Source: Mesotaenium endlicherianum
Lineage: Eukaryota
Assembly: GCA_009602735.1 (NCBI GenBank)
Contig: WELA01001627.1
Coordinates: 32,238-92,466 of the forward strand
Reading direction: 5' to 3'
DNA length: 60,229 nucleotides
Position 1 is the stretch's first letter, and each line of letters starts with the position of its first letter. The translations under genes and the position numbers were made by a program. Below the pieces are notes generated by a model, which was given only the letters and a program-made list of their open reading frames with translations, ran no database searches and was not told the origin of the DNA. Of this stretch, positions 28,403-47,769 are shown piece after piece.

Positions 28403-30031
28403 ATGCCATACACCCCAAGACGTACACGGAGTGGGGCGTTGTACCAACGCGATTTTGTGCACAATCCTCTTGTCTCCGCACGCACGAGTGTGTTGTTTGA
28501 CTCTGAGCCTGAGGAGGGGGGTGACTTTGATTCGCTTTCTTTGCATCATCCGTCCACCCTTACCATATCGAAGCCCTTTTATAGACTATCTTTGGACCTC
28601 ATGCCCGAGTCGTTTTCTCCTCATCCTGCCGATACAGAGTCTCAGTCTGAGTGTTGTGTGATTGCATGCGAGTTTGGTTATTTGCACAAAGAATTTCCGT
28701 TTGTTTCTGAGGGGTTTTCTACCATGGCTACTTCCACGCTGCTATCTGAGACCTATACGGGGCACTCCAATGGCATTTACATCGTGGCATTGGAATCTAA
28801 GATTGACGCTTCGATTGCGTTGATGCGCGCTTGTAATCACAACCTCACGCGTAACCTGTTTTTCGACACTTTACCCTCACCCCTGGGCGGAGAGGCATTA
28901 TTATTCTATCGGAGGTTTAGGGTTGACATCGTCCAGACGGTACCGGACGCTGTGCCCGGTGCCGCCCCGATTCCTATAGTTGAGGCTCCTACAGTCCCGC
29001 CGGCGGACCATCCTCGAATAGCTGCTGCGGCTGCCGCTACCGCAGCCGCCATGGCTACTGGGCTAGACGCCGCCGCCGCGGCAGTAGTTGTCGCAGCGGC
29101 GGGGCTAGGCCCGATCGGGGGTGAGGGGGGGGAACTCGCACTACTTTGGGGAGCGGCAGGGGAACCTGCAGGCGCTGGACCGGTTGAGCTCGCTCTACCG
29201 GCGTATGCCACCCCCGTCGAGCAGCTTGCAGCTCGTGTGGCGGATTGCCATCATCGATCCATGCAACGGCGCCAGCAGCAGGCAGTACTTGGCATAGTTT
29301 TACCTTTGTATGAACCTGCGCCTGGAGCTGTCTTGGATCGCATTGACACCCTTTTGCAGATGTTTCCTCAGCACGTCCCCGCTAACGCTCGTTCTCGCCA
29401 AGATGAGTTGAGAGACTTTGTGCGCTCCGCGCGCGAGACTCCTAACATGGCTTATGAGCGTTTCCAGCAGTTGAGGGATGATACGGGCATTTACGTGGAT
29501 GTGACTCAGGCTTGCATCAAGTTCATCGGTGCTTTTTCTGCTTCTACTTCCCTGTGTCAGGCCCTTAACCATCAGCTTGCTCTTACTGCTATACCACAGC
29601 GGAGTGTACACGAGGTTTGTCGGTGGGCTGAGCAGATAGAGATGGTGCACGCAGCGTTGCAAGCCGAGCGTAGGACTGCCAAGGGTGGAGCCATGGGAGT
29701 GCATTCAGTGCAAGTACCTACTCCGCCAACCACCGCGGCCGTCCTGGGAGCGGGACATGCCGCCGCGACCAAGCGGGTGGTTCCAGTGTGCGACTGCTAC
29801 CGCCAGAAGGGTCACCTAGTGAAGAAGTGCTTTCTCCTTCATCCCCATTTGGCGCCGACGGGGTGGTCCTTCAAGCCCCATGCAGGCCGGCATGCAGGAC
29901 ATGCATCGTGGCGTAGGGTCGCAGCCTGCTCCTATTCTTGCTCAGTTTGTCGGTTTGCATCCCCTCCCGCCTTGAAGGCCTGGTTCCACCTATCCTTCCT
30001 GGTTTCCGCGACCGACCGACCATGCATATAA
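28403..30031 (+). pseudogene. gag-like ORF of a truncated retroelement, same gag family as the DNMT-bearing element
   Basis: N-terminal TRSG; FVRSARETPNMAYERF resembles FRRKNETIRMMYRRL; degenerate knuckle CDCYRQKGHLVKKC; no pol follows. Confidence 0.65.
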
Positions 30032-30641
30032 TGTAATTGAGGAGGAGGACAAAGATTTGGTCGTAGGGGTCCATGCAATTTACAGTTGTCGTGTGGCTGC
30101 CGCAGAGGGCCTTGCTGCCCCAACTGTAGGACCCGACCACGGGCAGAGCGTTGAGCAGTCCGCTCAGCTCCCGCGATTGTTTGACCTGTTTGAGCCCAAT
30201 GATACCTTGGGGGCCGCTCATGCCCGGCCGCCCGTACCAATTTGGGATGTGCTAGCTTGTCCTGCTGATGCAGGTACCTTGGTCATCCTCCTAGACGACG
30301 TCCCCGCGGCCCAGCTGCAGGCCCAGCTGGTGTGCGACAACCTGCGCGCGGAGGCGGCTTTCGTCGAGCGCAATCTGCTTCTTCCCCCTTCTCGTAACAA
30401 TGACCGTCGTCAGACGCTAGGCATCGACACCCCTAATCTACACAAGTGTTGAAATAGCAAGGACAGGACGTGATGCTAAAGGACTGGACAAGAGCTGGCT
30501 ATTCTAGGTGCTGTGGGTAAAAACCCCCCCTGTTAGGGGGAAAAGCCCACAACTTATGAGCTGTAAATGAAAGAGAATACGAGAGGTCTGAACTGGGCAC
30601 TAATGGGCACTAGTGGGCAACTAAGCAGCTACTAAGCACTA

Positions 30642-30777
30642 TGTCGTGCGTTACGAGGTCGAGTGCGCACCATAGGCATAAGCAACACATCATAGGCAAG
30701 CAGGCTTTGCTGCAATGGAGTCTATAATACATGTGCTGTTATAGCCAAAAAGGGGGTCAAGTCGCAAATGCTTTAAT
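30642..30777 (-). repeat. Terminal repeat B, copy 2
   Basis: Direct repeat of 31780-31914. Confidence 0.95.
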
Positions 30778-31777
30778 TAAGGGATGTGTACTCTCCAGAG
30801 TGAGCACCTCAAGACTGTAGTATGGTAGGAAAACAACTAGTGAAGTATCGCCCAAAAGATCACTGGAAGCACATCATGATCTTCAGAGTAGTCCTATGGC
30901 AAGGGTTTAAGCTGTGACTTTGCTCACCACTTGTGAAGTTCTTCAAGTGACTGGAAGCCTGGAGGGCTTGCTCCTCACAAGAGAGTAATTAAGTAGTCCT
31001 GAAAACACAAGAGATAAAAGTGTGAGCTTTACTGATAATCTCTGATACTTACACCTCGCATAATGGACTTCTAAAAGATGTCTCTTCTAGGGACATCTCT
31101 AGTACTTATAATCCTGGAAATCCGGCGGGGTATGCGGCGGATCCAATGCATGTAGTCACTCTAGGAGGCTCTCCTATGTCCACTAATGTGTACAAGGCAT
31201 GTACTAGCACTCCTATAGGCTAAGCATAACTCAAACCAATCAAAGCAAGGTGCGTAGGATATGCTACGTGGTCCTCATTGGCCGAGCTTACCTTGGGTGA
31301 TTTTACCTAGATAGCGCCTCAAAAGTGGATCTGGAAATTGAGGAAGCTTCCTCTAGGAGTAGGTGATGCAGTCACCAAGTTATAGCCTCAATGATGCACA
31401 TATACTATGGAAATACAAGCTTATGTAGGCTAAGGGGCTCGCGGATTTGTGCGCACAAAGCTTGGGGTCACGAAGAGCCAACAATGTCACCTTTGGGGAC
31501 ATTGAGTCACAAATTAGGCCTTGGGAAAGTTCCGCTAGGGACCGGTATGTGGCGCGGACTAGATCGCACCCATCTCGCTTGATACTTGACCAAATGACGC
31601 AAAATTGGTGTCATTCGGAAGATGCTTCAACGCGCTACTTGTTGGTGACTCGTAAATCTAGAAAAGGTCAACATACGGATGCGTAAAGTCAATGCAAAGT
31701 CGGCCTTCCTAGGTTGATATTTCGCACATGTGGAGCTTGGTTTTTATACAACAACCTCGACGCAATGAATAATGACA
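30778..31777 (-). repeat. Terminal repeat A, copy 2
   Basis: Direct repeat of 42168-43157. Confidence 0.95.
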
Positions 31778-31779
31778 GC

Positions 31780-31914
31780 TGTCGTGCGTTACGAGGTCAA
31801 GTGCGCACCATAGGCACAAGCAACACATCATAGGCAAGCAGGCTTTGCTGTAATGGAGTCTATAATACATGTGGCGTTAGCCAAAAAGGGAGTCAAGTCG
31901 AAAATGTTCTAATT
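31780..31914 (-). repeat. Terminal repeat B, copy 1, directly after the PPT
   Basis: Direct repeat of 30642-30777, joined to A2 through CA-GC-TG. Confidence 0.95.
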
Positions 31915-31927
31915 CCCCCCCCAGCTC

Positions 31928-32383
31928 TCAGCCTCTAGCTGATGGGCTGTGTACGCTGCCTAAGGCTAGCTCAGTGCAGTCTCCGCAGAACCAGTCTCCA
32001 GCTGGCACGCGGGCCAGCGGCGGGTCGAGGCAGCCGATGTGGAAGCCGAGGTTGCAGCTGTCGCAGAGCAGCATCTTGGCCTCCTGGCCAGTGCCGTGAC
32101 AGACCTGGCACACCCAGTCCTTGGGCGGCCACGCGTCGCCGGGACGGACATGCAAGTCAAGGTTAGGAAGGTGGCACGGCCCACAATTCTTCGTGTGGTC
32201 CTTGTGAAGACGGCCATCTGCGCCTTCCAGCTCCAGGACTCCTGACGCCAAGGCACGCTTGACGCGCAGGATGACCGGCGAGCTGCTGATGTCGAGGGTG
32301 TTCTTTGTCTGGCGTCGCAGGTACACGAAGTCACCTGCGGAAAATTGCAACACCCGCGGATGATAGGCTCCTCCACGAGTCAT
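31928..32383 (-). CDS. Integrase C-terminal region with PHD finger (frameshifted from pol)
   Basis: CQVC...LLCDSC...FHIGC...PAGDWFCGDC is a C4HC3 PHD finger. Confidence 0.92.
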   Translation of the reverse strand: MTRGGAYHPRVLQFSAGDFVYLRRQTKNTLDISSSPVILRVKRALASGVLELEGADGRLHKDHTKNCGPCHLPNLDLHVRPGDAWPPKDWVCQVCHGTGQEAKMLLCDSCNLGFHIGCLDPPLARVPAGDWFCGDCTELALGSVHSPSARG

Positions 32384-32391
32384 GGCGTACC

Positions 32392-35300
32392 TCAGTGTGT
32401 TGCGATGCTGTGCGATGTGAGGTTATCCATGGCCATGGGCAGCAGGCGCCGGAAGAGCTGAGCACGCTGCCCGATAAGAGCACTCCATGTCTCGGGACTG
32501 TCCAAGTCCAAGACGTTCTCGGCCACAGTCCTGGCTGCTGCTGGCAGGATGGGCTGTCGGCCGTAGAAAAGGAAGTAGGGAGAGTGCGAGGCTAGGGAGG
32601 CCTGCTTACTAAACCTGTACCCCATCGCCAGCCAAGGGAGGGCGTCGTCCCAGTGGGTACGGTCGTGGGCAAGGCAGTACTTTCGCAACCCTAGCTTGAC
32701 GGTCTGCACCATGCGCTCGGCGAGGCCGTCTGCCTGAGGATGATCGCGGGAGGTGGTGCGGTGGTCAATCATTGAGCGCTCCAGCAGCTTATGAAAGCTG
32801 CCCTGGAACTCCTTGCCCTGGTCGGTCAGCACCTCAGCGCAACCGCCAAAACGGCTAAGGACCTGATTGAGGAAGGCCTGAGCGATCCCCTCACTGGCCT
32901 TGCTGGGCAAGGGCACGAGCTCGATCCACTTGGACATGTGCTCAATCATCACCAAGACGTAGAGGTTGCCCTGGCGAGACTTGGGCAGCTCCCCAGCCAA
33001 GTCAAGCGACCACCTGTAGAACATCCCCTGAATAGGAAGGGGGCTGAGGGCAACAGTGCGCGCTGTGAAGCTCGAGCGCACACGGTCGCAGAGAGTGCAG
33101 CTGCTGACGACGGCGGCGACGACCTTAGTCATGCCGTGCCACCAGTACTCGGCCTGAAGAAGACTGAGGGCGCGCTTGACACCGAAGTGCTCAAGGGACT
33201 CGTGCACTCGGCGCACCAGCTGACTGCGTATGGCAGGCTCAGGGACCACCAGGACGGAGCCGTCTGCCATCACGCGCCGCACGCGCCCTTCCATAAAAAT
33301 GAAGTTGCGGCTGCGCCTGAGGATGCGGTCGCGCTCGCGTGCGCTGACATCGGATGCCAACTCCTTGGCCATGACGTACTGCAGCACTGGGGCGTCGTCC
33401 CACACGTCCTCGGGACCACGTTGCCAGCTGTCGTGATCCTCTGCCGCTGCCAGGGCCAATCGCCGAGTGGTGACGGTGACCATGTCCAGGCTAGTGAGCC
33501 CTGCGGGTCGCACATCGCCGTCCACGGTGAAGGCCAGGAAGGCCACCTCGTGCCAGGCCACCGGCTCATCCTCATCGTGGCGGGCCACAGTGAGATCCCT
33601 CGAGGAGGGCAGCGGGTTACGGCCGAGACCGTCAGCGTCCAGGTTGGTCGAGCCTGGGCGGTGGTGCACGTCGAAGGTGTACTCCTGCAAGATAAGCGCC
33701 CATCGTGCGTACTTGCCGGTCAAGCGCTCCGACGTCATGAGCCACTTAAGTGGCTGGTGGTCGGTGACCAGGCGGAAGTGCGTGCCGTAGAGATAGTGCC
33801 TGAAATGCACGATCGCCCAGACCGCTGCAAGGCACTCCCCCTCGTAGGAGCCGTAGTTGCCTTCCGCGCGGTTGTTGCTGCGGCTGGCGTAAGCCACCAC
33901 ATGCTCGAAGCCGTCATGCTCCTGCACCAGCACAGCGCCCAGCCCTGCCTGCGACCAATTGGTGTGGAGGATGAAGGGCTTTGCGTAGTCAGGACGCCGA
34001 AGCACAGGAGCGCTCACCTGCAGCTCCTTGAGCTTATCGAATGCCGCCTGCTGCTCTGGTCCCCATACGTAGGCAACGCCCTTGCGGAGCAAGTCGTTGA
34101 GCGGCTTGGCTAGCTCGCTGAACCCTGGCACGAAGCGGCGGTAGTAGTTGGCGATGCCGAGGAAGGCCCGTAGCTGCGAGAGATCTGTAGGAGGTGGGAT
34201 GCCTGTGATGGCCGAGATCTTCGCCAGCTGGGGTGCCAAGCCGCTGGAGGAGAGCAGGTGGCCAAGGTATTCCACCTCGCGGGTCCCAAAGGTGCACTTG
34301 CCTGGATGGCACTTGAGCCCAGCGGCCTCCAAGCGGTCCAGGACGATAGTGATGTGCACCACGTGCTCCTCAAACGTCTGACTGAAGACGAGCACGTCAT
34401 CGATGTAGCATCGGGCAAAGGACAGCCCGACCAGCTCCTTATCCATCACCCTCTGAAAGGTAGCTGGCGCATTCTTCAACCCGAACGGCATCACCACCCA
34501 CTCGTAGAGCCGCTGTGCTCCCCAGAACGCCGTCTTATGCTGGTCCTCCTCGGCGATGGGAATCTGGTTGAAGCCCTGATGCAGATCCAGCACTGAGAAC
34601 CAAGTGCACGTGCCAATGTCGTCAAAGATCTCGTCAGGCGTCGGCATAGGATATCTGTCCTGCTCGGTGACCTCGTTCAGCCTACGATAGTCTCCGCACA
34701 TCCTCTTCTCGGACCAGTTGCCCGAGGCATCCTTCTTGGCTGGCATGACCGTGGGTGCGGCATAACGAGAGCAGGACTCCCAAATGAGCCGGCTGTCCTC
34801 CAGGTTGCCTGTCTGCGCGCTGATCAAGCCATCCTCAAAGTGGCTGTAGCGATAACGCTTCAGGAAAATGGGCTCCTGCGACGAGAGAGTAATCCGCATG
34901 GGGTCCCCCCTGTAGCGCCCAAGATCGTGCATGCTGCTGGCAAAGCTGGTGCTGCGCCTCCCATCCAGCAGTGCCGTCAACTGTGCGGCCTGTGCCTTGG
35001 TGAGTGTCCCCCCCAGCTTCCATGTCGGTGGAGCTGGTGGCGTCGCCTGACCTGCAGCTGGAGTTTCTTGTTGTGCCGCTGGGGTAGACTGTGGTGCTGC
35101 AGGTGTCACCTGCCCTGCAGCGGTTGGCGCTTGGCCTGCCGCGGGTACCTGCACTGTGGCAGTTGCGGCCAGCTGCCTGGCACCGTCTGCCTGCGAGCGA
35201 TCGTCTGCCTGCGAGCGAGGAAAAAGAAAAGGTGACTGGGACTCCCTGGGTCGCTGTGAGGACTCCTCTCTCCGCCGGCCCCCCCCCAGCGAGCCAGAGT

Positions 35301-36582
35301 CCTCCCCGCGCGGCCGTGGGGAGGGGGGGCGGGTGCGCTCTGGCGGTGCAGGCCCTGTGCGCTGAGGATGCCATGTTGTGCTTGGCGATGTCTGAATGTC
35401 ATCGTCTGTGGAGTCATCGTCCATATTATCGGCAGGCCGAGGTAGCTCGGGATGCCGGGCTGCGGCGTAGAGAGGCGCCAAGGCTTGCGTCTGCAGCAGA
35501 ATCCACGTGAGGACGTTGGCGTCGATGGCCTGCCCCAAGAGGCGAATGCGGTTCACCTCAGTGAGACCGTCCACCTGCGTGAGATGCGGCGGAAAACCCA
35601 TGGCACGCTCCATCTCTGCAGGGCGTGGCCTGTCAAACATGCCAGTCTCCAGGTCGATGACCATCCCTCGCTGATCTCCGACAAAGGCGTCGCTGTCATA
35701 GCGACTGACAAAAGTCGGCAGCGCGCGAGTGACGTCATGCAGGACCTCACACTGCGCCATGGAGGGATGTGGCAGCGCCGTCACGCGCTGGGCCAGACGA
35801 GGGGCATCGAGGATGGAGTTGACGGTGCGTGTGTGACGTGGATGAGAGGCGGCCAACGCCTCGAGAGTACCTGGCATCGCCAAGTTTGCGAAGTAGGCGC
35901 GGACGCGGTGCGCGAAGGAACCAATCTGGGCAGCGTCGATGACGGCCTCGCGGCCGACGTAGCTGCTGCAAAGAGCGAAGTCGGCGCTAACATCGGGACG
36001 GCGATCGTGGCGTGCGGCCACGTTCTCCAGGACCCACGCGAGTGTGTGTGGCGGCTGGCGCTCCTCAACAATGTTGAGGACGCGGAGCAAGTGCCAGAAG
36101 AGGGCCGTGCGGGGATCGCTGAGCGCCCTGCCACGCCCGGCTCTGGAGAAGCCCTGGCACTCCCAACCGGCGATGACGAGATCAACGGGCCCAAGTCGGG
36201 TGACATGCTCGACGGTGATGTCGCGGATGTCCATGGACCAGTCTGTCTGAGCGCGGCGGAATGCGCGCGCGGGAAGGAGGTCAGGGAACCGCTCGTGGCC
36301 CAACGCCATCTGTCGACGGGCCACCTGCTGGGCCTCTGGATTGGGATCGACGTAGACGTAGCGGCGCACCGGGATGCCGGCTTGTAAGGTCGCGAGTAAC
36401 CCGGTGGCGATGCCGGCAAAGAGCTCGACGAGGACGATGCCGCCAGGTTGCTCGTCCAGAGCGTCTGCGCAGATAGGAGTCGGAAGTGGGCGACACCCCA
36501 CAGCAGGGGTGCCGGGCTGAGCGGGCGGCGGGAAGGTACGCTCGGCGCTGTGCTGATGTGGCGCCATGCGGAGGGCGGCCAC
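32392..36582 (-). CDS. Polyprotein: C5 cytosine methyltransferase (DNMT3-like, ~35480-36445) fused to RT, RNase H and DDE integrase
   Basis: MTase motifs I ELFAG, IV GWECQG, VI ENV, VIII HRVRAY, IX EMERAMGFP, X RLLG. RT YIDD. RNase H HTNWS (Asp to Asn). Integrase H..H..CTLC with DLAG/TDQG/GLAER. Confidence 0.95.
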   Translation of the reverse strand: MAALRMAPHQHSAERTFPPPAQPGTPAVGCRPLPTPICADALDEQPGGIVLVELFAGIATGLLATLQAGIPVRRYVYVDPNPEAQQVARRQMALGHERFPDLLPARAFRRAQTDWSMDIRDITVEHVTRLGPVDLVIAGWECQGFSRAGRGRALSDPRTALFWHLLRVLNIVEERQPPHTLAWVLENVAARHDRRPDVSADFALCSSYVGREAVIDAAQIGSFAHRVRAYFANLAMPGTLEALAASHPRHTRTVNSILDAPRLAQRVTALPHPSMAQCEVLHDVTRALPTFVSRYDSDAFVGDQRGMVIDLETGMFDRPRPAEMERAMGFPPHLTQVDGLTEVNRIRLLGQAIDANVLTWILLQTQALAPLYAAARHPELPRPADNMDDDSTDDDIQTSPSTTWHPQRTGPAPPERTRPPSPRPRGEDSGSLGGGRRREESSQRPRESQSPFLFPRSQADDRSQADGARQLAATATVQVPAAGQAPTAAGQVTPAAPQSTPAAQQETPAAGQATPPAPPTWKLGGTLTKAQAAQLTALLDGRRSTSFASSMHDLGRYRGDPMRITLSSQEPIFLKRYRYSHFEDGLISAQTGNLEDSRLIWESCSRYAAPTVMPAKKDASGNWSEKRMCGDYRRLNEVTEQDRYPMPTPDEIFDDIGTCTWFSVLDLHQGFNQIPIAEEDQHKTAFWGAQRLYEWVVMPFGLKNAPATFQRVMDKELVGLSFARCYIDDVLVFSQTFEEHVVHITIVLDRLEAAGLKCHPGKCTFGTREVEYLGHLLSSSGLAPQLAKISAITGIPPPTDLSQLRAFLGIANYYRRFVPGFSELAKPLNDLLRKGVAYVWGPEQQAAFDKLKELQVSAPVLRRPDYAKPFILHTNWSQAGLGAVLVQEHDGFEHVVAYASRSNNRAEGNYGSYEGECLAAVWAIVHFRHYLYGTHFRLVTDHQPLKWLMTSERLTGKYARWALILQEYTFDVHHRPGSTNLDADGLGRNPLPSSRDLTVARHDEDEPVAWHEVAFLAFTVDGDVRPAGLTSLDMVTVTTRRLALAAAEDHDSWQRGPEDVWDDAPVLQYVMAKELASDVSARERDRILRRSRNFIFMEGRVRRVMADGSVLVVPEPAIRSQLVRRVHESLEHFGVKRALSLLQAEYWWHGMTKVVAAVVSSCTLCDRVRSSFTARTVALSPLPIQGMFYRWSLDLAGELPKSRQGNLYVLVMIEHMSKWIELVPLPSKASEGIAQAFLNQVLSRFGGCAEVLTDQGKEFQGSFHKLLERSMIDHRTTSRDHPQADGLAERMVQTVKLGLRKYCLAHDRTHWDDALPWLAMGYRFSKQASLASHSPYFLFYGRQPILPAAARTVAENVLDLDSPETWSALIGQRAQLFRRLLPMAMDNLTSHSIATH

Positions 36583-36622
36583 AGCACGGTCTGCGTAGTC
36601 CCGCGTAAGGTTGGGGATGCGG

Positions 36623-39040
36623 TCAGTGAGCGACTGTGGACGCTCCCCCCGTGCGTGGTCCTGGTAGGTGCGCCACCGCAGGCGCGCATCCTGCAGGGCT
36701 GTGGGAGACAGCGCTGGCCTGACGTCGGGCCGAGGCCACGCACAGCTGCTGCCACCTGTCGCGCTGGGCGCGGTCAGTCTGGTGCGAGGCCGCGTGGGCC
36801 AGCTGTTCGAGAACGGGATGCGGAGTCAAGTAGGCTCGTTGGCGTGCGCGCATGTCTGCAGAGGGGACTGTGCAGACGGAGCGCTCGGAGCTGTCGACCT
36901 CCTGCGGGGATCGAACTAGCCGGCGAGGGGCCAGCTGGACTCGCGGCCGAGGCTGCCCTCGTGGGACGGACGCGTCCCGGGGCTGCCGGAGACTAGACAT
37001 GAGCCGTGTGCGTGCGGCGGCTGTAAATGGGTGACGACTAGGCGGCCTGCTGTTGGTGCGGGCCACCTTGGGAGGAGGTGACCCGGAGGGACCGTCGCCA
37101 GCGATGTGGCTGCGAGGGACGCTGGCGCGCGGAGCTGTAGGGGCCAGCATCACGAAATGCGCCTCGGAAGAAGACTGAGCGTCGTCGCCAGCTGAGAGGG
37201 GCCGGAAGGGCGGAGTGCGGCGTCGATCTCGAGTGTCGTCGTATGGCGGCGTGTCCCCGCGGGTCCGCGTGTCGTCGTAAGGAGGTGTGCGGTCCCTGTC
37301 GTCGTAGGGCGGCGTGACGGTGCGGGCGCGCGTCTCGCGGAGGGGAGTCACCTCTTGCGCCTCGCAAAGGGGTGTGAGCGATCGGGAGCGGCTCGTCTCG
37401 CGGAGAGGAGTGGTCTCTCGAGCGGGTCCGATGGTCGGCCAAGTGCGATGTGCGTAGGTCAGATGGGCGCAGATAGACGGGGTCGTGCGGTGTGGCTCGC
37501 GGACGCTGAGCCTGGGCGCTGGCTGTTGTATGGAGTGTGTGCCAGCGCTAGAGGAGGCCGCGGCAGCCCGGCTCGTCGCAAACAAATGCGCGATGCGGCG
37601 ACACTCGTGGCTCGTTGAGCAATCGTGTGACACTGGTCGGCTGGGTCCAGCGGCGTCGGTGCGAGCCCTGCTGGGCCAGTCGTGAGTCATGGGCTGGCTG
37701 GGTGCGCTGAAGTCGGGCGGACCAGTAGGTGTGCGTTGCCTGCGTGTTGTAGGTGCAGCTGGCGGGGGCTCCTCGGGTGGTGCCGCGCTGAGGGCCTCGA
37801 CGGAAGCCTCTGGCAGTTGTTCCCACTGCGTCTCCTCCTCACTTTTGTGGGACTAGTCGTCGGATCTGCCAGGATAAGCTGCCTGCCGCACGGCCTCGTC
37901 TTTGGATGCCGTGGGGCGAGGCCAGGTCTCGCCGGTCTGATGCGAGGCGTCGTGCGGGGGCGGCTGAGAGTCCATACTGTACTGAATGGCCACGCCAACA
38001 GGCACGTCGTGGCGAACGCGGACGTCGGTCCTCGCGGACGGTTCGCCTCGAGAGGCCGAGACCCCCTGATGAGTTGTGGGCGCTGCGACCGCACCGCAGG
38101 CAAGGGCGGCGGCAGCGATGGCTGTGATGGTCGTGGCGAGGGCCTTAGTGGCATCGTCCCACATCTGCCGCAACATCGCGCTGTGGGCAGTGCAGATGCG
38201 GATCTGCTCCCTGGCCTGGACTGCCAGGACATCCGCCTGCTGCTGCGGCGTGAGATGGAGCTCGACACTAGGTAGGTCCGGCTCCTTGTCCTGTGACTCG
38301 AGCAGATCCACCCCCACAGAGATCTCCTCGTCCTCGTGCCCGTCCTTATCGGTCTTGACCACTGGCCGGCCATCATCTAGTCCCATGAGGCCATAAAGAG
38401 CGGACACTGCTGGGCGGCGATCGACAATTTCAAGGGGCAAGGATGCGGTGCGCGTCCCCCCTGTCCTCCAGTCGGGACGATAGAAGACGCGCTCTGCCCA
38501 GTTGTCGACCGCGGCGCCTATGGGAAAGAGCACGTCCTGCCCTAGGAGCACATTGAAGGACTCGGAAGGAGTGACGAGTGCGTGCTGATGGATGGTCGTC
38601 TCGTCTGCCGTGCCTGGGCGCAGAGTGAACAGTAGCGCCAACCTCGTGCGGCCGGCGACGGTCTCGGACGTACCGGCGGCGGTGTTAATGCGCGTCGAGG
38701 AGTCCTCCAGGTCAGCAGAAGAGAGTCCCAGCTGACGAAAGTAGCGGAGGCTGATGAGGACCGGCTGCGCTCCTGTGTCGAACATGATGCGCTGTGGCGC
38801 CTGGGTGTTGACGAGCACGATCCCCTGCGAATTATCCAAAAACGCGTCGTTAGGAGTGCTGATCATCCTGCGCTCATGCGCAGAGCGCGCGGGCGTGAAT
38901 CGCACCGCGGTGGCGGCATCGGCCGTCGGTCTCCTGGCGGCGGTGCGCAGCGTGGCTCTGCGTGACTGGAGCATCAGCTGAGCGGCCTGCCTCGTTGCCT
39001 CCATGGAGACGCCGAGCTCTGCGAAGGAGATCGCCGGCAT
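36623..39040 (-). pseudogene. Aspartic protease and low-complexity linker of the same polyprotein
   Basis: IMFDTGAQ active site. ORFs 37853-39040 and 36623-37690 are in the same frame, separated by one TAG, and a frameshift near 36730 leads into the MTase frame. Confidence 0.8.
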
Positions 39041-40166
39041 ACGGTGCAGCGCCAGAGAGATGACCTCCGCGCTGAGCTGTACGTCGTCATAGGTGAAGCG
39101 AGCGCATGAGGCGTCGGCTCAGCTGAGGTCGTGGAGAGATCTAGGATGCGGAAGGAACGGGGCAGCCGCGGTGTCTCCTCCGTTCGGCGTCCTTGGTCTG
39201 GCCCGACGCGCTTCTGCGGAACAACGGGCCAACTGGCCGGTGCGGCGAGCGTGTGCTCGCGGCTCGCGCGCCCGACTGTGGAGCGGTTGCCGAGTGGCTA
39301 CGCGCGTGCGCAGCAGGCCAGAATGGCTGCTGCTGGCGCAGCCGGCAAACTTGCCGCGNNNNNNNNNNNNNNNNNNNNNNNNNNNNNNNNNNNNNNNNNN
39401 NNNNNNNNNNNNNNNNNNNNNNNNNNNNNNNNNNNNNNNNNNNNNNNNNNNNNNNNNNNNNNNNNNNNNNNNNNNNNNNNNNNNNNNNNNNNNNNNNNNN
39501 NNNNNNNNNNNNNNNNNNNNNNNNNNNNNNNNNNNNNNNNNNNNNNNNNNNNNNNNNNNNNNNNNNNNNNNNNNNNNNNNNNNNNNNNNNNNNNNNNNNN
39601 NNNNNNNNNNNNNNNNNNNNNNNNNNNNNNNNNNNNNNNNNNNNNNNNNNNNNNNNNNNNNNNNNNNNNNNNNNNNNNNNNNNNNNNNNNNNNNNNNNNN
39701 NNNNNNNNNNNNNNNNNNNNNNNNNNNNNNNNNNNNNNNNNNNNNNNNNNNNNNNNNNNNNNNNNNNNNNNNNNNNNNNNNNNNNNNNNNNNNNNNNNNN
39801 NNNNNNNNNNNNNNNNNNNNNNNNNNNNNNNNNNNNNNNNNNNNNNNNNNNNNNNNNNNNNNNNNNNNNNNNNNNNNNNNNNNNNNNNNNNNNNNNNNNN
39901 NNNNNNNNNNNNNNNNNNNNNNNNNNNNNNNNNNNNNNNNNNNNNNNNNNNNNNNNNNNNNNNNNNNNNNNNNNNNNNNNNNNNNNNNNNNNNNNNNNNN
40001 NNNNNNNNNNNNNNNNNNNNNNNNNNNNNNNNNNNNNNNNNNNNNNNNNNNNNNNNNNNNNNNNNNNNNNNNNNNNNNNNNNNNNNNNNNNNNNNNNNNN
40101 NNNNNNNNNNNNNNNNNNNNNNNNNNNNNNNNNNNNNNNNNNNNNNNNNNNNNNNNNNNNNNNNNN

Positions 40167-42109
40167 GTCAGGACCCCCCCCTGCTGACCGAGGGTGGCGG
40201 CCGCAACGCCCGTCGCTGCGCTGGCCGTACAGGCCTGCGCGCATGCGCCACTTGGCAGCGCGTGGGTGCAGCTGCTGTGCGCGGCTGCAGCTGCCGCCGT
40301 GACGACGTCGTGGCGTCGCCGAATGTACCGTGGTTCTGGCAGCGCAATGCGCGGGACGCACGTGAGAGCCAGCGTGCGTGCGTGCATGCCGCTGTTGGCA
40401 GAGGCGGCCCCGCCTGCCGTGCAAGTGCCACGTGGCGGTCCCTGCTGGGGCCTGCTGTCTACAGCAGCAAGCGGGGACCGGCTGTCTCTGCCTGTGCGCA
40501 GAGCTGCGCGCGGGCGTGCCGTACGGACGGAGTGGGACGCTGCGGCCGGACCCGCTGTAGCCGTGCACACCGCCAGGTGCCCCCGTCCCTGCCTGCCAGC
40601 TGTCGCTACGCGGGCCGACGTAAGGCTTGCTGGTGTCAACAGGGAAGCGCAAGCCAAAGGCTCTGTCGGGGCTTCGGCTGGCGCGCGGGCTGGCCTGCGT
40701 GCGCGCGAGTTTGCGCCGGCTGTCAGCGCCGTGGCGTAGGGCGGTGGAACGGACGCGAGGAGTGCTCCGCACTCGTCATAGTTGTCGGCGTCAAAGAGGC
40801 CACGGAGTCTAGCGATCTCCGCGTTGGCCTCCATGAGGGCGTCGCTGATGTCGTCGAAGCTGCAGTAGTCGGCTCCAGGAATCAATGCGGCGTTCGTCGT
40901 GGCCGTAGCTGCTGTCATCGCGGGGCGGCCACCCGCACGAGGGTTGCGTGCGCCTCGCTGTCCTGCTGAAGGCGTAGGGCCGTCGCGAGCGCGGCCGTTC
41001 TCGACGTCGCGCTTCTTTTGCAGACAGACGATCTGCAGGTGGCCGGCTTTGCCACAGTAGGTGCAGTCGCCGGGCTTGCCATTCTGCGCGAGAGTGCAGT
41101 TGTGGCGTGAGTGGCCCATCTTGCCGCAGGACCAGCAGGGATCGCTCGTGGTGGCAGCCATGGAAATGCGGCCACGCGTAGCTCCGCGCTGCTGCGTCTG
41201 CTGAGGCAGCTGAGAGCGCTGAGGCTGCTGCTGCTGTGACTGGGGCTGGCGGGCAGGCGTCGTGCGCGTCGTAGAAGACGGCAACACAGAGGCCTCCTGG
41301 CGCACGCCCGTGGATGCTAAGCCCACACGGTCGCTAATGTTGCTCCGTGCGGCGGCCAAGCTCTGCTTCTCAACGGAGAGGTAGGCCTGCTCCAGAGAAT
41401 ACTCGGAACCGTGACGGTCGATGAGGGGGACTACGGCCCTCTCCCTCAGACGCGGCTCGACGGCACGCAAGAAGATCCCCGCGGCCTCCCGGTGAATGAC
41501 AGTGCCGACATCGCGGCGGAGGTGCACCAAGCGGCGGTACATCATGCGGATAGTCTCGTTCTTGCGTCGGAAACAATGGTGCAGCTCGTACACCTTCTCT
41601 TCAGTTGCAGCCTGGAACTCTGTCTTTAGGATGTTCCAGAAGGCTTGCACTGGATCGGCTAGCAGGGTTGCCACTGGTGGGTCACCCACAAGCTCAGTGC
41701 GGGTCCGGAGCTCGGCCTCCTTCTCACGGAAGGTGTCGCGGGCCTCGTGCGAGAGGTAGCGCATAAGCGTGTCGAAGACGTCGCGCTTAGTCAGCGTGGG
41801 TGTCTTGAGCTTTGCAGCCGCGAAGTTAGCCTGAAACTCCGAGATGGTATCTTCCAGATCACAGGTGCCTGGCCTACCGCTGAAGCGATAGGCAGACCTG
41901 TCAGCCCTGACCTCGTGGTCACCTGCCATGGGATACCAGAAACCGTAGTGAGCCCACTGGGGAGATGGCTCGGAAGCAACTGCTGTGTGCTGGAGAGCAG
42001 GTCGCTCTTCTTCAGCGGGTTCAGTGATGGTGCTGAGATCTGAGTCTGAGTCTTCGTCACTGACCCCTTCGTAGTATGGCTGATAAGAAAGCCCACTACG
42101 GGTAGGCAT
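40167..42109 (-). CDS. gag: gag with two CCHC zinc knuckles (continues into an assembly gap)
   Basis: CWSCGKMGHSRHNC and CTYCGKAGHLQIVC; first ORF after repeat A1. Confidence 0.85.
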
Positions 42110-42167
42110 ACATTGAAGGTTCTAATTGCTTGAGGGCAAAGAGAGATCTTTTAGAAGTAAGGGAAGT

Positions 42168-43157
42168 GTACTCTCCAGAGTGAGCACCTCAAGACTGTAA
42201 TCTGGTAGGAAAACAACTAATGAAGTATGGCCCAAAAGATCACTGGAAGCACATCATGATCTTCAGAGTAGTCCTATGGCAAGGGCTTAAGCTGTGACTT
42301 TGCTCACCACTTGTGAAGTTCTTCAAGTGACTGGAAGCCTGGAGGGCTTGCTCTTCACAAGAGAGTAACTAAGTGGTCCTGAAAACACAAGAGATAAAAG
42401 TATGAACTTTACTGATAATCTTTGTTACTTGCACCTGGCATAATGGACTTTTGAAAGATGTCTCTTCTAGGGACATCTCTAGTATTTATACTCCTGGAAA
42501 TCCGGCGGGGTATGCGGCGGATCCAATGCATGTAGTCACTCTAGGAGGCTCTCCTATGTCCACTAATGTGTACAAGGCATGTACTAGCACTCCTATAGGC
42601 TAGGCATTACTCAAACCAATCAAAACAAGGTGCGTAGGATATGCTACATGACCCTCATTGGCCGAGCTTACCTTGGGTGGTTCTACCTAGATAGCGCCTC
42701 AAAAGTGGATCTGAAAATTGCGGAAGCTTCCTCTAGGAGTAGGTGATGCAGTCACCAAGTTATAGCCTCAATGACGCACATATACTATGGAAATGCAAAG
42801 CTTATGTAGGCTAAGGGGCTCGCGGATTTGTGCGCACAAGCTAGGGGTTTTAGGGGGTCACAAATAGGCAAGAATGTGCACATTGAAACACACATTGCCC
42901 TTTGGTGAGGATCCGCTAGGGGCCGGTACGTGACGCGGACTAGATCGCTCATATCTCGCGCGATACATGACCAAATGACGCGAACCCGGTGCCGTTCGGA
43001 AGGTGACTCGACGCGCTACACTTTGGTGACTTGGAAATTGAGAAAAGGTCAACGTATGGATGCGTAAAGTCTATGCAAAGTCGGCCTTCCTAGGTTGATG
43101 GTTCACACATGTGGAGCTCGGTTTCGTGCGGCAACCTCGACTCAATAAATCATGACA
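42168..43157 (-). repeat. Terminal repeat A, copy 1 (5' end, probable promoter)
   Basis: Begins TGTCA on the - strand; TATAAATA on the - strand near 42483-42490; no TGG-type PBS follows. Confidence 0.93.
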
Positions 43158-44435
43158 ACTGCATGGCTGGGCTCACTCAGTTCTTCACTGAGAGCTTTAC
43201 TTGTTAACACTACTCTTGCTATTAGCAATTCGACACTTGAGACTTCTGAGAACTTGGAAACTAACACAGCACTCACCATTTTAAGTGACCCTCGCACGCT
43301 TGCGGCGTTTGACCCAAACCTGTGCTAATCTCCTAACAGATTCTATTCTGCAGCTCTCTACTTTCTACCAGCGAGATCCTCTCTTGGAAACTCCTGAGGT
43401 CTAACCTTTCTATGATACACTTAGGAAGAAATCTTCCAGCGTCGGTAGAAGCGTGGCGCCCCGACTCTTCTATGGCCTTGGAAACTCCTTCTTCTTTGCG
43501 CTCCTTCTGCTTCTTCAGCTTCCTTTGACAACGATGCGAGCAAGAATGAGGCAGCTTCAGGCAGGACTCGTGCCTCTCACAGGCACCACACACTGTCCTC
43601 TCTCGAGAATGCCAGTGCTTAGTCACAGCGCTTAGCGTGCATGCCGTCCTTACCCAGCAGCTCTTACACAGCTTAGAAGTTGTCACAGGGTTACGCCGTA
43701 CGCCGTACAGGCCGACCCTCGTACGCTTAATTAAGCGTACTGAACCAGTACGCACGTACTAAGCGTACGAATAATTTTCAACTCGTGCGCGCCGCCCAGT
43801 GACGCGCCGACGTATTCACGTCTGGCACTGCACGCTCCGTTTCACTTATTAGTTTAAAATTGTCGTCGATCGAAGCGATGAAACATGACAGTACATGCAG
43901 ACAAGTTTTATCAGCAACGGCGGGAACATAAAAAAACAAGTGAAAGTTTCACCAATATTTGGGCCACCATGACATTGGTTCCAATTTCCCTCTCTTGCAC
44001 ATACGCATCTGCTTCGGTGTAGTGCAGCCGCGAATATTTACAAGCCAAACTTGAGGCCTACTTAACAGCTCTGTAGCCTCTTGTTGTTCATTCTACATCT
44101 GCTGATCATTCTTGTAAGTTTCTTTACCTCGTTTTCATGACCTCGCTTCCTCGCTCGCTTGTTCTTGTTACTTGTATATGTATTCATGTTTTGTTTATGG
44201 AAGTTTTTTATTCCGTTTGTTTGTGGCTGGTTCTGGTAATGGATCTTCAATTAGGCTTAGCTCACTAGTGCTAACAATGTCAATGTTCATGTGAGAGGCA
44301 GGCCTACACAAAGAGCACAAAGTTGAACCCATCTAGCGCCTATCGACGTGCCACCGTCCACAGACAAGTGCATCAGGTCACATGCGCCTCTCCCCTCCTC
44401 TTTTCTGCTGTCTTTTTTGGCATGGGGGATCTATT

Positions 44436-47400
44436 TGGCTTGTCAGGGCTGGCTGCCAGCCCCTTGCTTGCTTTTGTGGGGCTGGCTGCCACCCCTGAGC
44501 TTGCTTTTGTCGGGGCTGGCTGCCAGCTCCTGCTTGCTTTTGTGGGGCTGGCTGCCACCCCTGAGCTTGCTTTTGTCGAGGCTGGCTGCCAGCTCCTGCT
44601 TGCTTTTGTGGGGCTGGCTGCCAGCCCCTTGCTATTTTAAGATTTTAGTTGGGGCTGGCTGCCAGTCCCTCTCTTGCATTTGTCGGGGCTGGCTGCCAGT
44701 CCCTCTCTTGCTTTTGCCGGGGCTGGCTGCCAGCCACCTGCTTGCTTTTGTGGAGCTGGCTGCCACTCCTGAGCTTGCTTTTGTTGAGGCTGGCTGCCAG
44801 TCCCCTGCTTGCTTTTGTGGGGCTGGCTGCCACCCCTGAGCTTGCTTTTGTCGGGGCTGGCTGCCAGCTCCTGCTAGCTTTTGTGGGGCTGGCTGCCAGC
44901 CCCTTGCTATTTTAAGATTTTAGTTGGGGCTCGCTGCCAGTCCCTCTCTTGCATTTGTCGGGGCTGGCTGCTAGTCCCTCTCTTGCTTTTGCCGGGGCTG
45001 GTTGCCAGCCACCTGCTTGCTTTTGTGGGGCTGGCTGCCACCCCTGAGCTTGCTTTTGTCGGGGCTGGCTGCCAGCCCCTTGCTATTTTAAGATTTTAGT
45101 TGGGGCTGGCTGCCAGTCCCTCTCTTGCATTTGTCGGGGCTGGCTGCCAGTCCCTCTCTTGCTTTTGCCGGGGCTGGCTGCCAGCCACCTGCTTGCTTTT
45201 GTGGGGCTGGCTGCCACCCCTGAGCTTGCTTTTGTCGAGGCTGGCTGCCAGTCCCCTGCTTGCTTTTGTGGGGCTGGCTGCCACCCCTGAGCTTGCTTTT
45301 GTCGGGGCTGGCTGCCAGCCCCCTGCTTGCTTTTGTGGGCCTGGCTGCCAGCCCCTTACTTGCTATTTTAAGATTTTAGTTGGGGCTGCCTGCCAGTCCC
45401 TCTCTTGCATTTGTCGGGGCTGGCTGCCAGTCTCTCTCTTGCGTTTGTCAAGGCTGGCTGCCAATCCCTTGCTTGCTTTTGTGGGGCTGGCTGCCACCCC
45501 TGAGCTTGCTTTTGTCGAGGCTGGCTGCTAGTCCCCAACTTTCTTGTGTGGGGCTAGCTGCCAGCCCTGAGCTTGCTTTTGTCGGGCTGGCTGCCAGCTC
45601 CTGCTTACTTTTGTGGGGCTGGCTGCCAGCCTCTTGCTATTTTAAGATTTTAGTTGGGGCTGGCTGCCAGTCCCTCTCTTGCGTTTGTTGGGACTGGCTG
45701 CCAGCCCCCTACTTGCTTTTGTGGGAGCTGGCTGCCAGCCCCCTGCTTGCTTTCGTGGGGCTGGCTGCCAGCCCCGAGCCTCCTTTTTTTGGGGCTGGCT
45801 GCCAGCCCCTTACTTGCTATTTTAAGGTTTTAGTTGGGGCTGCCTGCCAGTCCCTCTCTTGCGTTTGTCGGGGCTGGCTGCCAGCCCCCTGCTTGCTTTT
45901 GTCGGGGCTGGCTGCCAGCTCCTGCTTGCTTTTGTGGGGCTGGCTGCCAGCCTCTTGCTATTTTAAGATTTTAGTTGGGGCTGGCTGCCAATTCCTCTCT
46001 TGCGTTTGTTGGGACTGGCTGCCAGCCCCCTACTTGCTTTTGTGGGGCTGGCTGCTAGCCCTGAGCTTGCTTTTGTTGGGGCTGGCTGCCAGCCCCCTGC
46101 TCGCTTTTGTGGGGCTGGCTGCCAGGCCCTTACTTGCTATTTCAATGTTTTAGTTGGGGCTGGCTACCAGTCCCTCTCCTGCGTTTGTCGGGGCTAGCTA
46201 CCAGCCCCCTGCTTGCTTTTGTGGGGGCTGGCTGCCAGCCCCCTGCTTGCTTTCGTGGGGCTGGCTGCCAGCCCCGAGCTTCCTTTTTTTGGGGCTGGCT
46301 GCCAGCCCCTTACTTGCTATTTTAAGGTTTTAGTTGGGGCTGGCTGCCAGTCCCTCTCTTGCGTTTGTCGGGGCTGGCTGCCAGCCCCTTGCTTAATGTT
46401 TTAGGGTTTTACTTGGGGCGGGCTGCCAGCCCCTTGCTTGGTGTTTTAGGGTTTTAGTCGGGGCGGGCTGCCAGTCCCTTGCTCTGTGTTTTGGGATTTT
46501 AGTTGGGGCGGGCTGCCAGCCCCTTGCTTGCTTTTGTCGGCTTGCTTGCGTATTTGTTTCCTGTTGATTTGGACTAGCAGTCTGTTTCATAATTTTAAAA
46601 CATTGTCTACTTTTTTTTTGTCTTGTGTGAAGCAGGGCAAGACAAAGAGGAGTGAGTGGACCCCCCTTGTGCCTATCGACGCGCGCGCCTATCGACGCGT
46701 GAGCAACGAGAGGTGGACAGGTGCCTTGACCCTCCCTCCTTCCTCTTTCCCCTCTCTCTCGTGCCCCTTGTTTGCTTTTGTTGGGGCTGGCAGCCAGCCC
46801 CGAGCTTGCTTTTGTGGAGCTGGCTGCCAGCCCCGAGCTTCCTTTTTTAGGGGCTGGCTGCCCAACCCCTGCTTGCTTTTGCGGGGCTGGCTGCCAGCCC
46901 CTTACTTGCTATTCTAATGTTTAAGTTGGGACTGGCTACCAGTCCCGCTCTTGCGTTTGTCGGTGATGGCTACCAGCCCCCTGCTTGCTTTTGTGGGGGC
47001 TATCTGCCAGCCCTCAGCTTGCTTTTGTTGGGGCTGGCTGCCAGCTCCGAGCTTGCGTTTATTGGGGCTGGCTGCCAGCCCCTTACTTGCTATTTTAAGG
47101 TTTTAGTTGGGGCTGGCTGCCAGTCCCTCTCTTGCGTTTGTCGGGGCTGGCTGCCAGCCCCCTGCTTGCTTTTGTGGGGCTGGCTGCCAGCCCTAAGCTT
47201 GCTTTTGTCGGGGCTGGCTGCCAGCTCCGAGCTTGCGTTTATTGGGGCTGGCTGCCAGCCCCTTACTTGCTATTTTAAGGTTTTAGTTGGGGCTGGCTGC
47301 CAGTCCCTCTCTTGCGTTTGTCGGGGCTGGCTGCCAGCCCCCTGCTTGCTTTTGTGGGGGCTGGCTGCCAGCCCTGAGCTTGCTTTTGTCGGGGCTGGCT

Positions 47401-47672: not shown

Positions 47673-47769
47673 CTGGCAATTATTGGCTTTTTTGGGGGTT
47701 GTTTGAATGACATCTTACTTTGTCTCTTATTGGTTCTTGTGCTTCATTATTGCAGGTTTCACCTTCATC

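What the first reader, a model, noticed from the sequence alone, without database searches (positions are those of the whole stretch)
30642..43157. DDE-integrase Gypsy element with split direct repeats (A...B-A-B): possible integration from a 2-LTR circle at an internal att site
Seen: on the - strand the order is A1 - gag/pol - PPT - B1 - GC - A2 - B2. The PPT abuts B1, which starts AATT rather than TG. A1 ends CCCTTA rather than CA and has no tRNA-type PBS. The TG/CA att-like ends (TGTCA.../...CGACA) lie at the outer termini and again back-to-back internally as the palindrome CAGCTG (31776-31781). The A2/B2 joint is the palindrome TTAATTAA (30773-30780). Known: A...BAB ends are typical of tyrosine-recombinase retroelements (PAT/Ngaro/TOC1-like) that integrate circles, whereas Ty3/Gypsy DDE integrases normally use linear cDNA. 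Inference: the reverse-transcribed LTR is B-GC-A, the cDNA is end-joined into a 2-LTR circle, and the integrase opens it at the internal CA|GC|TG, giving exactly this layout. Caveats: this is one decayed copy, the TSD is imperfect, and the two flanks do not obviously belong to one empty site.
Basis: partly seen in the sequence, partly recalled or inferred. Interest (0 to 1): 0.88.

Follow-up and report, generated by a model that had tools for sequence, protein, structure and literature searches.

The report
Gypsy retrotransposon with circularly permuted LTRs
This is a decayed copy of a green-algal and bryophyte-type Gypsy retrotransposon lineage whose inserted copies begin and end in the middle of the repeat that reverse transcription should leave at the ends, which likely means its DNA copy is first joined end to end and then opened by integrase at an internal site, a route normally regarded as a dead end.

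Summary
The layout is real: A1-gag/pol-PPT-B1-GC-A2-B2, with TG/CA outer ends. The predicted reverse-transcribed LTR is therefore B-GC-A, and the inserted copy is a permutation of it. The layout is lineage-wide. Four full-length relatives show it (4-bp target duplication exact in three), and 15 of 15 visible 3' ends put the PPT before B. All split elements that were placed fall in one clade whose integrase has D-34-E spacing. No tyrosine recombinase was found in relatives. This copy itself is likely a recombinant, so its imperfect TSD proves nothing. The layout was noted once in a figure legend (KnitGypsy-Dnmt3, 2018). It is also present in curated Chlamydomonas consensus sequences, including the actively transposing Gypsy-7a_cRei (B = 8 bp). 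My ten searches found no mechanism in print. Best reading: the cDNA ends are joined and integrase cuts the nearby CA|GC|TG site (free 2-LTR circle about 0.6; inferred, untested). The scan reported this same layout earlier on another genome (e1-7364823).

The parts
30642..43157 (-). Whole element, 12,516 bp, A1-internal-B1-GC-A2-B2; decayed and likely recombinant
42159..43157 (-). A1 (999 bp; starts TGTCA, ends CCCTT); outer ~300 bp 18% diverged from A2, the rest about 5%
42485..42490 (-). TATA-like box in A1 (predicted promoter)
   Evidence: function inferred
42447..42466 (-). Predicted 5' end of the RNA and self-primer in A1 (17/20 complementary to the PBS)
   Evidence: transcription start not mapped
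42139..42158 (-). Self-priming primer-binding site abutting the end of A1
   Evidence: 19/20 to A2; shuffle and whole-interior controls
40167..42121 (-). gag-like ORF with a weak zinc knuckle hit (E 0.0016, below the Pfam cut-off)
39359..40166 (.). Assembly gap (808 N) between gag and protease
37853..39118 (-). Aspartic protease ORF
   Evidence: PF13975 E 1e-8
32392..36825 (-). pol ORF without stops: C5 DNA methyltransferase - RT - RNase H - HHCC/DDE integrase (D1275, D1335, E1370; D-34-E)
31928..32422 (-). Integrase tail and PHD finger, in another frame (frameshifted in this copy; in frame in relatives such as L080)
31915..31922 (-). Polypurine tract (G8) abutting B1
31780..31914 (-). B1 (135 bp; starts AATT, ends CGACA)
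31774..31783 (.). Internal palindrome GACA-GC-TGTC, the predicted integrase att site (CA|GC|TG)
   Evidence: conserved in relatives; cleavage untested
30779..31777 (-). A2 (999 bp), holding the 19/20 self-primer match at 31067-31086
30773..30780 (.). A2|B2 joint: exact fusion of the PBS-defined end (CCCTT) to the PPT-defined start (AATT)
30642..30778 (-). B2 (137 bp; ends CGACA at the element's 3' terminus)

Best explanation
This is a Ty3/Gypsy retrotransposon of a green-lineage clade whose inserted form is A-internal-B-GC-A-B, likely because reverse transcription makes a cDNA with B-GC-A at both ends, the two ends are likely joined into a 2-LTR circle, and the DDE integrase likely opens it at the CA|GC|TG palindrome nearest the joint. 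Steps: (1) The RNA would start about 25-30 nt after the TATA box in A1 and end inside A2 (inferred). (2) Its 5' end would fold back onto the site right after A1 and prime minus-strand synthesis, as in Tf1 (complementarity shown; priming inferred). (3) The plus strand would start at the G-run before B1 (position shown). These two primers define the cDNA as [B-GC-A]-internal-[B-GC-A], with ends that lack TG/CA. (4) The ends are joined without gain or loss of bases (the exact A|B joint is shown; the ligase and the circle are inferred). (5) One staggered cut after each CA leaves two CA-3' ends with 2-nt GC overhangs, the geometry of processed retroviral ends (established knowledge, recalled); insertion gives a 4-bp duplication (shown in relatives). 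B2 is thus made anew from B1 in each round. This particular copy was likely later recombined with another copy or solo repeat in the outer part of A1.
For: Self-priming site abuts A1. It recurs in 7 of 7 visible 5' ends of relatives (9-12 of 12 matches, at 31-32 nt from a TATA in six) and in L080 (13/13). The PPT abuts B in 15 of 15 distinct visible 3' ends of two families; 12 continue B-spacer-A and 10 show B2. The full layout appears in L006, L011, L013 and L016, with 4-bp duplications exact in three and 3/4 in L006. The spacer is 2 nt in 12 of 12: GC six times, GT three times and AC twice (single transitions of GC), TA once. The same PPT-B-CA|GC|TG signature or att palindrome occurs in further families L027, L034, L044, L080/L081 and L082. 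A2|B2 joints have no inserted or lost base in 9 of 9 loci scored. B1 and B2 of one copy share variants against other copies: family 1 has 0.57 indel events within copies against 2.3 between; in L081 B1 = B2 (0 of 106 differences) against 5 differences to L080. The 12 split-labelled rows fall in one clade (FastTree local support 1.0) and the 6 ordinary-LTR rows lie outside it. No tyrosine recombinase. Read by eye: Gypsy-18_cRei and the entry before Gypsy-23_cRei have the full layout; Gypsy-7a_cRei has it with an 8-bp B. An 8-bp free arm seems too short to be held in an intasome (recalled footprint about 16-20 bp), which favours joining before cutting. HIV-1 integrase can cut and use 2-LTR junction palindromes.
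Against: No circle, RNA end or cleavage was observed; the evidence is anatomy only. A closed 2-LTR circle holds two identical att sites, yet no mirror product (A-B-GC-A...B) was seen in 8 of 8 5' ends, so an extra asymmetry is needed (B is always short, so the 5' att lies close to the joint; inferred). Three 3' ends (L018, L025, L029) stop after B1; they could be mirror products, 1-LTR-circle products or B1xB2 recombinants, and their 5' ends are off-contig. The within-copy B signal is absent in family 2 (0.058 within against 0.061 between; three loci), and in family 1 only 7 of 14 B copies have their partner as nearest neighbour. The L081 joint is ambiguous by one base; L030 has a deletion across the joint; L012 is rearranged. 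Exact joints in nearly every copy are cleaner than host end-joining usually gives for retroviral circles (recalled). All split elements are kin, so they count as one origin. The window's own TSD is imperfect and its flanks do not match.
Confidence: 0.6

Rival explanations
1. Reverse transcriptase jumps end to end after finishing the plus strand and copies B-GC once more. This would give a linear, terminally extended cDNA that integrase trims at the att nearest each end; no free circle is needed.
For: It explains at once why the mirror layout is missing (0 of 8 5' ends) and why joints are exact (9 of 9). End-to-end jumps are known for several RTs (recalled).
Against: It does not require the two half-sites to sit exactly 2 nt apart in one palindrome, yet the 2-nt GC spacer is kept from chlorophyte library entries to the streptophyte-like loci. 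It needs an extra second-strand synthesis step.
Confidence: 0.2
2. Integrate first, join afterwards: integrase binds the att in the left LTR of the linear cDNA and inserts both halves; the host then repairs the two loose RT-made ends into the A|B joint.
For: It gives the same product and the same polarity; the att is always near the left end.
Against: It leaves a chromosome break held by a B arm of only 8 bp in Gypsy-7a_cRei. Chromosomal repair should leave frequent indels, and 9 of 9 scored joints are exact.
Confidence: 0.1
3. A DIRS-like scheme: the RNA runs through B2, and template switches between the A and B repeats build the intermediate, so B2 is inherited through RNA.
For: The repeat layout is that of PAT/Ngaro-type elements (legend; passage). 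Family 2 shows no within-copy B signal.
Against: Ordinary PBS and PPT signals sit exactly at the A end and the B1 start and would bypass B2. B2s do not cluster apart from B1s. There is a DDE integrase, a protease and a 4-bp TSD.
Confidence: 0.08
4. A one-off rearrangement, nested insertion or misassembly of an ordinary A+B LTR element.
For: This copy is decayed, has an N gap, a mosaic A1 and unmatched flanks.
Against: The same layout occurs in four full-length relatives with TSDs, in several more families, and in curated Chlamydomonas consensus sequences.
Confidence: 0.02

Closest known systems
KnitGypsy-Dnmt3 of Klebsormidium nitens (de Mendoza et al. 2018, PMC5890265; I read passages of the charophyte section with the Fig. 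4 legend, the whole Discussion and passages of one supplement; figure not seen)
   Same: Gypsy domain set with a C5 methyltransferase in Pol; the legend says its repeats are arranged as in a DIRS element. Four K. nitens proteins fall in the same clade as the window's pol.
   Different: In what I read, the paper gives no priming sites, att site, TSD, PHD finger or mechanism. The window's pol is 40-48% identical to these K. nitens proteins over the best local alignment; I did not verify that they are the authors' KnitGypsy-Dnmt3 copies.
Gypsy-7a_cRei, Gypsy-18_cRei and the entry before Gypsy-23_cRei in the Chlamydomonas repeat library v3.4 (Craig et al. 2023, PMC9940879; passages and supplement parts 282, 283, 296, 299 read by eye)
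   Same: PPT-B-CA|gc|TG-A-B ends and D-34-E integrase spacing (counted by eye in 7a and in the entry before Gypsy-23); PHD finger stated for 7a; Gypsy-18 shows a self-complementary primer site after A. Gypsy-7a made 86 new insertions in one laboratory strain.
   Different: Gypsy-7a has an 8-bp B, a TGG (tRNA-like) primer site, a second ORF, and by my reading its PHD ahead of the integrase. The paper notes only 'LTR subparts' and a left LTR lacking 8 bp. Not placed on my tree.
PAT/Ngaro/TOC1-type DIRS elements with split direct repeats
   Same: A...B-A-B layout, with an internal B|A joint that restores the recombination site.
   Different: They use a tyrosine recombinase and lack a protease and DDE integrase (recalled; passage for the recombinase). 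Here there is protease, DDE integrase, TG/CA ends and a 4-bp TSD.
Tf1/sushi and Tcn1 self-priming chromoviruses (Neumann et al. 2019, PMC6317226; passages)
   Same: Primer site complementary to the predicted RNA 5' end instead of a tRNA.
   Different: They have ordinary LTRs and a chromodomain. The window's element has a PHD finger and groups away from the window's own chromodomain Gypsy.
Integrase cleavage of HIV-1 and foamy-virus 2-LTR junctions (PMC4372172 passages; PMC1905944 abstract; PMC1180852 listing only)
   Same: A DDE integrase cutting a palindromic CA...TG site inside circular DNA, which then integrates.
   Different: There it is a minor salvage route that re-opens the end-to-end joint and restores the normal provirus. 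Here the att is separate from the joint, so the product is permuted and the route would be obligatory.
IS3/IS30-type copy-out-paste-in circles (recalled, no call)
   Same: A DDE enzyme acting on two abutted ends separated by a 2-3 bp spacer in a circle.
   Different: Bacterial DNA transposons, with no reverse transcription.

Membership tests
Ty3/Gypsy (Metaviridae) | Order protease-RT-RNase H-integrase | tested here: met
Ty3/Gypsy (Metaviridae) | HHCC plus DDE integrase | tested here: met
   triad present, but spacing is D-34-E, one residue shorter than foamy-virus integrase and the outgroup loci
Ty3/Gypsy (Metaviridae) | TG...CA outer termini and a 4-6 bp TSD | tested here: met
   Termini met in the window; TSD exact in 3 of 4 full-length relatives and 3/4 bases in the window
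Ty3/Gypsy (Metaviridae) | Two whole LTRs, PBS after the CA of the 5' LTR, PPT before the TG of the 3' LTR | tested here: not met
   The PBS follows a non-CA end and the PPT precedes a non-TG start. It is Gypsy by its proteins and non-canonical by its ends.
KnitGypsy-Dnmt3-like group | C5 methyltransferase inside Pol | tested here: met
   PF00145 E 1e-8; also in L006, L013, L021, L027, L080
KnitGypsy-Dnmt3-like group | DIRS-like repeat arrangement | tested here: met
   the published layout is known to me from the legend only
KnitGypsy-Dnmt3-like group | Groups with K. nitens elements on an RT-RNase H tree | tested here: inconclusive
   Same clade as P0048, P0057, P0066, P0073, but their identity with the published copies is not verified
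DIRS order, split-direct-repeat type (PAT/Ngaro) | A...B-A-B repeats | tested here: met
DIRS order, split-direct-repeat type (PAT/Ngaro) | Tyrosine recombinase instead of a DDE integrase | tested here: not met
   None in 90 of 90 ORFs of 110 aa or more from six relatives, nor in 13 of 13 ORFs of the intact L080; the window's 808-N gap cannot be read
Tf1/sushi/Tcn1 chromoviruses | Self-priming PBS | tested here: met
   Complementarity shown; priming itself untested
Tf1/sushi/Tcn1 chromoviruses | C-terminal chromodomain | tested here: not met
   PHD finger instead
Troyka | CG...CG ends and 3-bp TSD | tested here: not met
   (parts 1-3 of 5 read)
Circle-integrating element (proposed mode) | Extrachromosomal circle with one A|B joint and integrase cleavage at CA|GC|TG | not testable with these tools
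   Needs cDNA isolation and integrase assays

The most novel reading that the evidence does not exclude
An old lineage of DDE-integrase LTR retrotransposons, spread across chlorophytes, streptophyte algae and bryophytes, has made the 2-LTR circle its obligatory integration substrate. It has uncoupled the ends made by reverse transcription from the ends used by integrase, carries a single internal att palindrome as bacterial IS circles do, and has an integrase core one residue shorter than other Gypsy integrases. One likely member is jumping now in laboratory Chlamydomonas.
Probability: 0.55. Interest if true: 0.92.

Novelty: new variant of a known kind. Interest (0 to 1): 0.8.

Why it matters
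Retroviruses and LTR retrotransposons are held to integrate linear cDNA whose ends are the att sites, with 2-LTR circles a dead end or a minor salvage route. Here the primer sites and the att site are provably in different places, so some end-joining step must come between reverse transcription and the finished insertion. If the substrate is a circle, this would be a natural case of an idea once proposed and then dropped for retroviruses (recalled), and a mechanistic bridge between LTR elements and DIRS or IS-type circle integrators. It is directly testable, because Gypsy-7a_cRei is active in common Chlamydomonas strains. It also matters for annotation: LTR finders that demand TG...CA on both repeats would miss or mis-split this clade (inference from the criteria quoted).

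Tried and rejected
No whole genome is held for this window, so copies in its own genome were not counted, and no read-level check of this locus, its RNA ends or its circles was obtained. One search used a wrong end for A1 (off by 7 bases) and was redone. No tRNA gene was found in the window. A scan of viral contigs gave 63 pattern matches and no relative. An in-silico empty site did not align across the junction to the paralogue at 10500-11600, so the window's TSD was dropped as evidence. L005 and L017 were dropped as duplicates of L006 and L016. Loci with fewer than 300 aligned RT/RNase H residues (among them L023, L029, L030, L054) are not on the tree, which has 97 rows, is midpoint-rooted and was not tested with a one-clade test. 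D-E spacing could be scored for 78 of 120 proteins (66 with 34, 12 with 35) and 39 of 79 loci (14 with 34, 25 with 35); only those on the tree are known to split by clade. A search for a self-priming stem in L027 gave no convincing site. Troyka was checked as a possible name and rejected. The gag-like ORF at 28370-30031 is only faintly similar to this element's gag (27% over 85 aa, E 8e-4) and is treated as a separate element. Literature searches found no paper giving the mechanism; Repbase Reports, the Craig 2021 thesis, subscription journals and paper figures were not visible, and the Chlamydomonas supplement is cut and was read only in four parts plus search hits, so a description there cannot be excluded.


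Full report
Observation. On the minus strand the element runs from 43157 to 30642 as A1 (43157-42159), internal region, a G8 polypurine run, B1 (31914-31780), the two bases GC, A2 (31777-30779) and B2 (30778-30642). A1 and A2 match at 908 of 996 aligned bases, B1 and B2 at 126 of 135. The internal region encodes a gag-like protein, an aspartic protease, a stop-free 1,477-residue frame with a C5 DNA methyltransferase, RT, RNase H and an HHCC/DDE integrase, and a frameshifted tail with a PHD finger. The catalytic D, D and E are present and align to foamy-virus integrase, with Ty3 integrase also matched.

The primer sites define a different LTR from the one seen at the ends. The 20 bases that follow A1 are, however, 19/20 complementary to a stretch inside A2 (17/20 in A1) that begins 24 bases after a TATA box. 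No other site among 9,398 interior 20-mers exceeds 15/20, and 10,000 shuffles reach at most 16/20. This is the arrangement of self-priming elements such as Tf1 and Tcn1 (mechanism recalled). Minus-strand synthesis would therefore copy from the end of A, and plus-strand synthesis would start at B. The cDNA should carry B-GC-A at each end, and its ends would not be TG/CA. The TG/CA pair lies inside that unit, back to back as GACA-GC-TGTC (31774-31783). The A2|B2 joint is the exact fusion of the PBS-defined end with the PPT-defined start.

This copy is likely a recombinant. The outer 300 columns of A1 differ from A2 at 54 positions, the other 688 at 32. The right flank belongs to a repeat also present at 10776-11590, but the left flank does not continue that repeat. 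The 3-of-4 'TSD' therefore carries no weight, and the case rests on relatives.

The layout is lineage-wide. The best of the 120 listed protein hits (about 55% identical or less over full length) are PHD-bearing Gypsy proteins, those with names coming from Coleochaete, Calypogeia, Closterium, Klebsormidium, Riccia, Marchantia, Tetraselmis and Tetrabaena. The host of the window was not determined. A metagenome scan returned 79 loci. Four distinct full-length relatives (L006, L011, L013, L016) show A...B-A-B, with 4-bp duplications exact in three and 3/4 in L006. In these two families all 15 distinct visible 3' ends have the PPT directly before B; 12 go on through a 2-base spacer into A, 10 show B2, and 3 stop after B1. 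All 7 visible 5' ends are A preceded by unrelated flank and followed by a self-complementary primer site. The spacer is GC in six, GT in three, AC in two and TA in one; GT and AC are the single transitions expected from decay of a methylated CAG/CTG (inference). Nine of nine scored A2|B2 joints have no gained or lost base; L030 and L012 are damaged and L081 is ambiguous by one base. Further families show the same palindrome after the coding region: L027, L034, L044, L080/L081 and L082. Five distant loci with both LTRs complete have ordinary ends: PPT before TG, and a TGG primer site just after CA.

B2 appears to be remade from B1. In family 1, B1 and B2 of one copy differ by 0.57 indel events on average against 2.3 between copies, and by fewer transversions (0.016 against 0.028). 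Only 7 of 14 B copies have their partner as nearest neighbour, and family 2 (three loci) shows no signal. In L081, B1 and B2 are identical over 106 bases while differing at 5 from the related L080.

Clade and integrase. On an RT-RNase H tree of 97 rows, the window and 11 split loci fall with the named algal and bryophyte proteins in one clade (local support 1.0); six ordinary-LTR loci and the window's own chromodomain Gypsy lie outside. The integrase of this clade has 34 residues between the second D and the E, against 35 outside: 66 against 12 of the 78 scorable proteins, 14 against 25 of the 39 scorable loci, and 5 of 6 loci. The missing residue maps just after the second aspartate in the alignment to foamy-virus integrase. 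This is one evolutionary event, and a link to the unusual ends is untested. No tyrosine recombinase was found in 90 ORFs from six relatives or in the 13 ORFs of the intact, gap-free L080; the window's own 808-base gap cannot be read.

What is in print. De Mendoza et al. 2018 (PMC5890265) describe KnitGypsy-Dnmt3 and remark in the Fig. 4c legend that its repeats are arranged as in DIRS while its domains are Gypsy. The Discussion, read whole, offers no mechanism for this. The Chlamydomonas repeat library supplied with PMC9940879 holds the layout in several entries, read by eye: Gypsy-18_cRei, the entry before Gypsy-23_cRei, and four of the 14 motif hits listed that have a G-run and short spacer before the palindrome (one of them is the entry). 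Gypsy-7a_cRei, with 86 new insertions in one strain, has an internal part that ends PPT, eight bases, gc; the same eight bases end its LTR entry, and the legend says the left LTR lacks the final 8 bp. It is thus the same layout with B = 8 bp and a tRNA-like primer site. Ten searches found no account of the mechanism; sources outside the library and figures were not visible. The scan's notes hold an earlier report of the same layout on another genome that reached the same paper (e1-7364823); it is not independent support.

Mechanism. The anatomy forces two steps: the two RT-made ends are fused, and integrase uses the internal palindrome. I favour a 2-LTR circle opened by one staggered cut (0.6). 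The spacer is always two bases, which gives both ends the 2-base overhang of processed retroviral ends (recalled); an 8-base B is an unlikely free intasome arm (recalled footprint); and HIV-1 integrase can cut and use 2-LTR palindromes. The main difficulty is polarity. A closed circle has two att sites, yet none of eight 5' ends shows the mirror product. B is short in every family seen (8 to about 200 bases), so the site next to the joint may simply be the one within reach (inference). An end-to-end jump by RT on a linear molecule (0.2) explains polarity and exact joints more directly; integration followed by repair (0.1) and a DIRS-like RNA route (0.08) fit less well. The methyltransferase may methylate the cDNA, as the 2018 paper suggests for its dinoflagellate DIRS elements, and the PHD finger may guide insertion; neither was tested.

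Verdict. The element is a Gypsy by its proteins and a non-canonical variant by its ends. The layout has been remarked on in passing, but its cause is unexplained in what I could search. An active likely member in laboratory Chlamydomonas makes the question testable now. Interest 0.8.

Noticed in passing
window 11009-11483: A miniature LTR element (TRIM-like): 139-bp TG...CA LTRs, a TGGTATCA Met-type primer site, a PPT and an exact 5-bp duplication TCCTA, inserted in the repeat that also forms the right flank of the finding.
   Followed up: partly
window 10776-11590 and 43164-43499: Two ~80% identical copies of an unnamed repeat; the copy at 43164 starts at the element's 5' boundary and its upstream part is missing from the window. 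The frame 43336-43758 has no Pfam hit.
   Followed up: partly
window 2190-8743 (minus strand): Two decayed ordinary Gypsy elements: one with an SH3 and chromodomain tail (5796-6239) and D-35-E integrase, one with a Ty3-type capsid (4379-5071) and RT.
   Followed up: partly
window 15852-20646: A KDZ (Kyakuja-Dileera-Zisupton) transposase fragment (16653-17450, E 5e-23) interrupted by a ~144/160-bp GT-rich tandem array at about 17650-19560.
   Followed up: no
window 47707-50161: A hAT-type transposase in two frames (DUF659 and hAT dimerisation domain), followed by ~225-bp tandem repeats at 50214-51114.
   Followed up: no
window 44430-47700: A 33-34-bp satellite array with TTTTAGGG-like runs near 47600, resembling plant/algal telomere repeats (resemblance recalled).
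   Followed up: no
window 28370-30449: A gag-like ORF on the plus strand just left of the finding, with no Pfam hit and only faint similarity to the element's gag.
   Followed up: partly
window 54176-55516: A Myb DNA-binding domain gene fragment (E 8e-14).
   Followed up: no
window 42119-42127 (minus strand): The first nine bases of B1 (AATTAGAAC) recur about 30 bases after the end of A1, just past the primer site; seen by eye, unexplained and possibly chance.
   Followed up: no
L027:2940-9257: In this relative the methyltransferase lies between RNase H and integrase, not ahead of RT as in the window, so the domain's position varies within the clade.
   Followed up: no
L080, L081, L082, L083, L084: Members of this eukaryotic retrotransposon clade sit in bacterial metagenome-assembled genomes, likely as mis-binned plant or algal DNA.
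   Followed up: no
L005:6231-6641 and L006:13655-14065: An inverted fragment of the integrase tail lies just beyond the element's 3' end.
   Followed up: no
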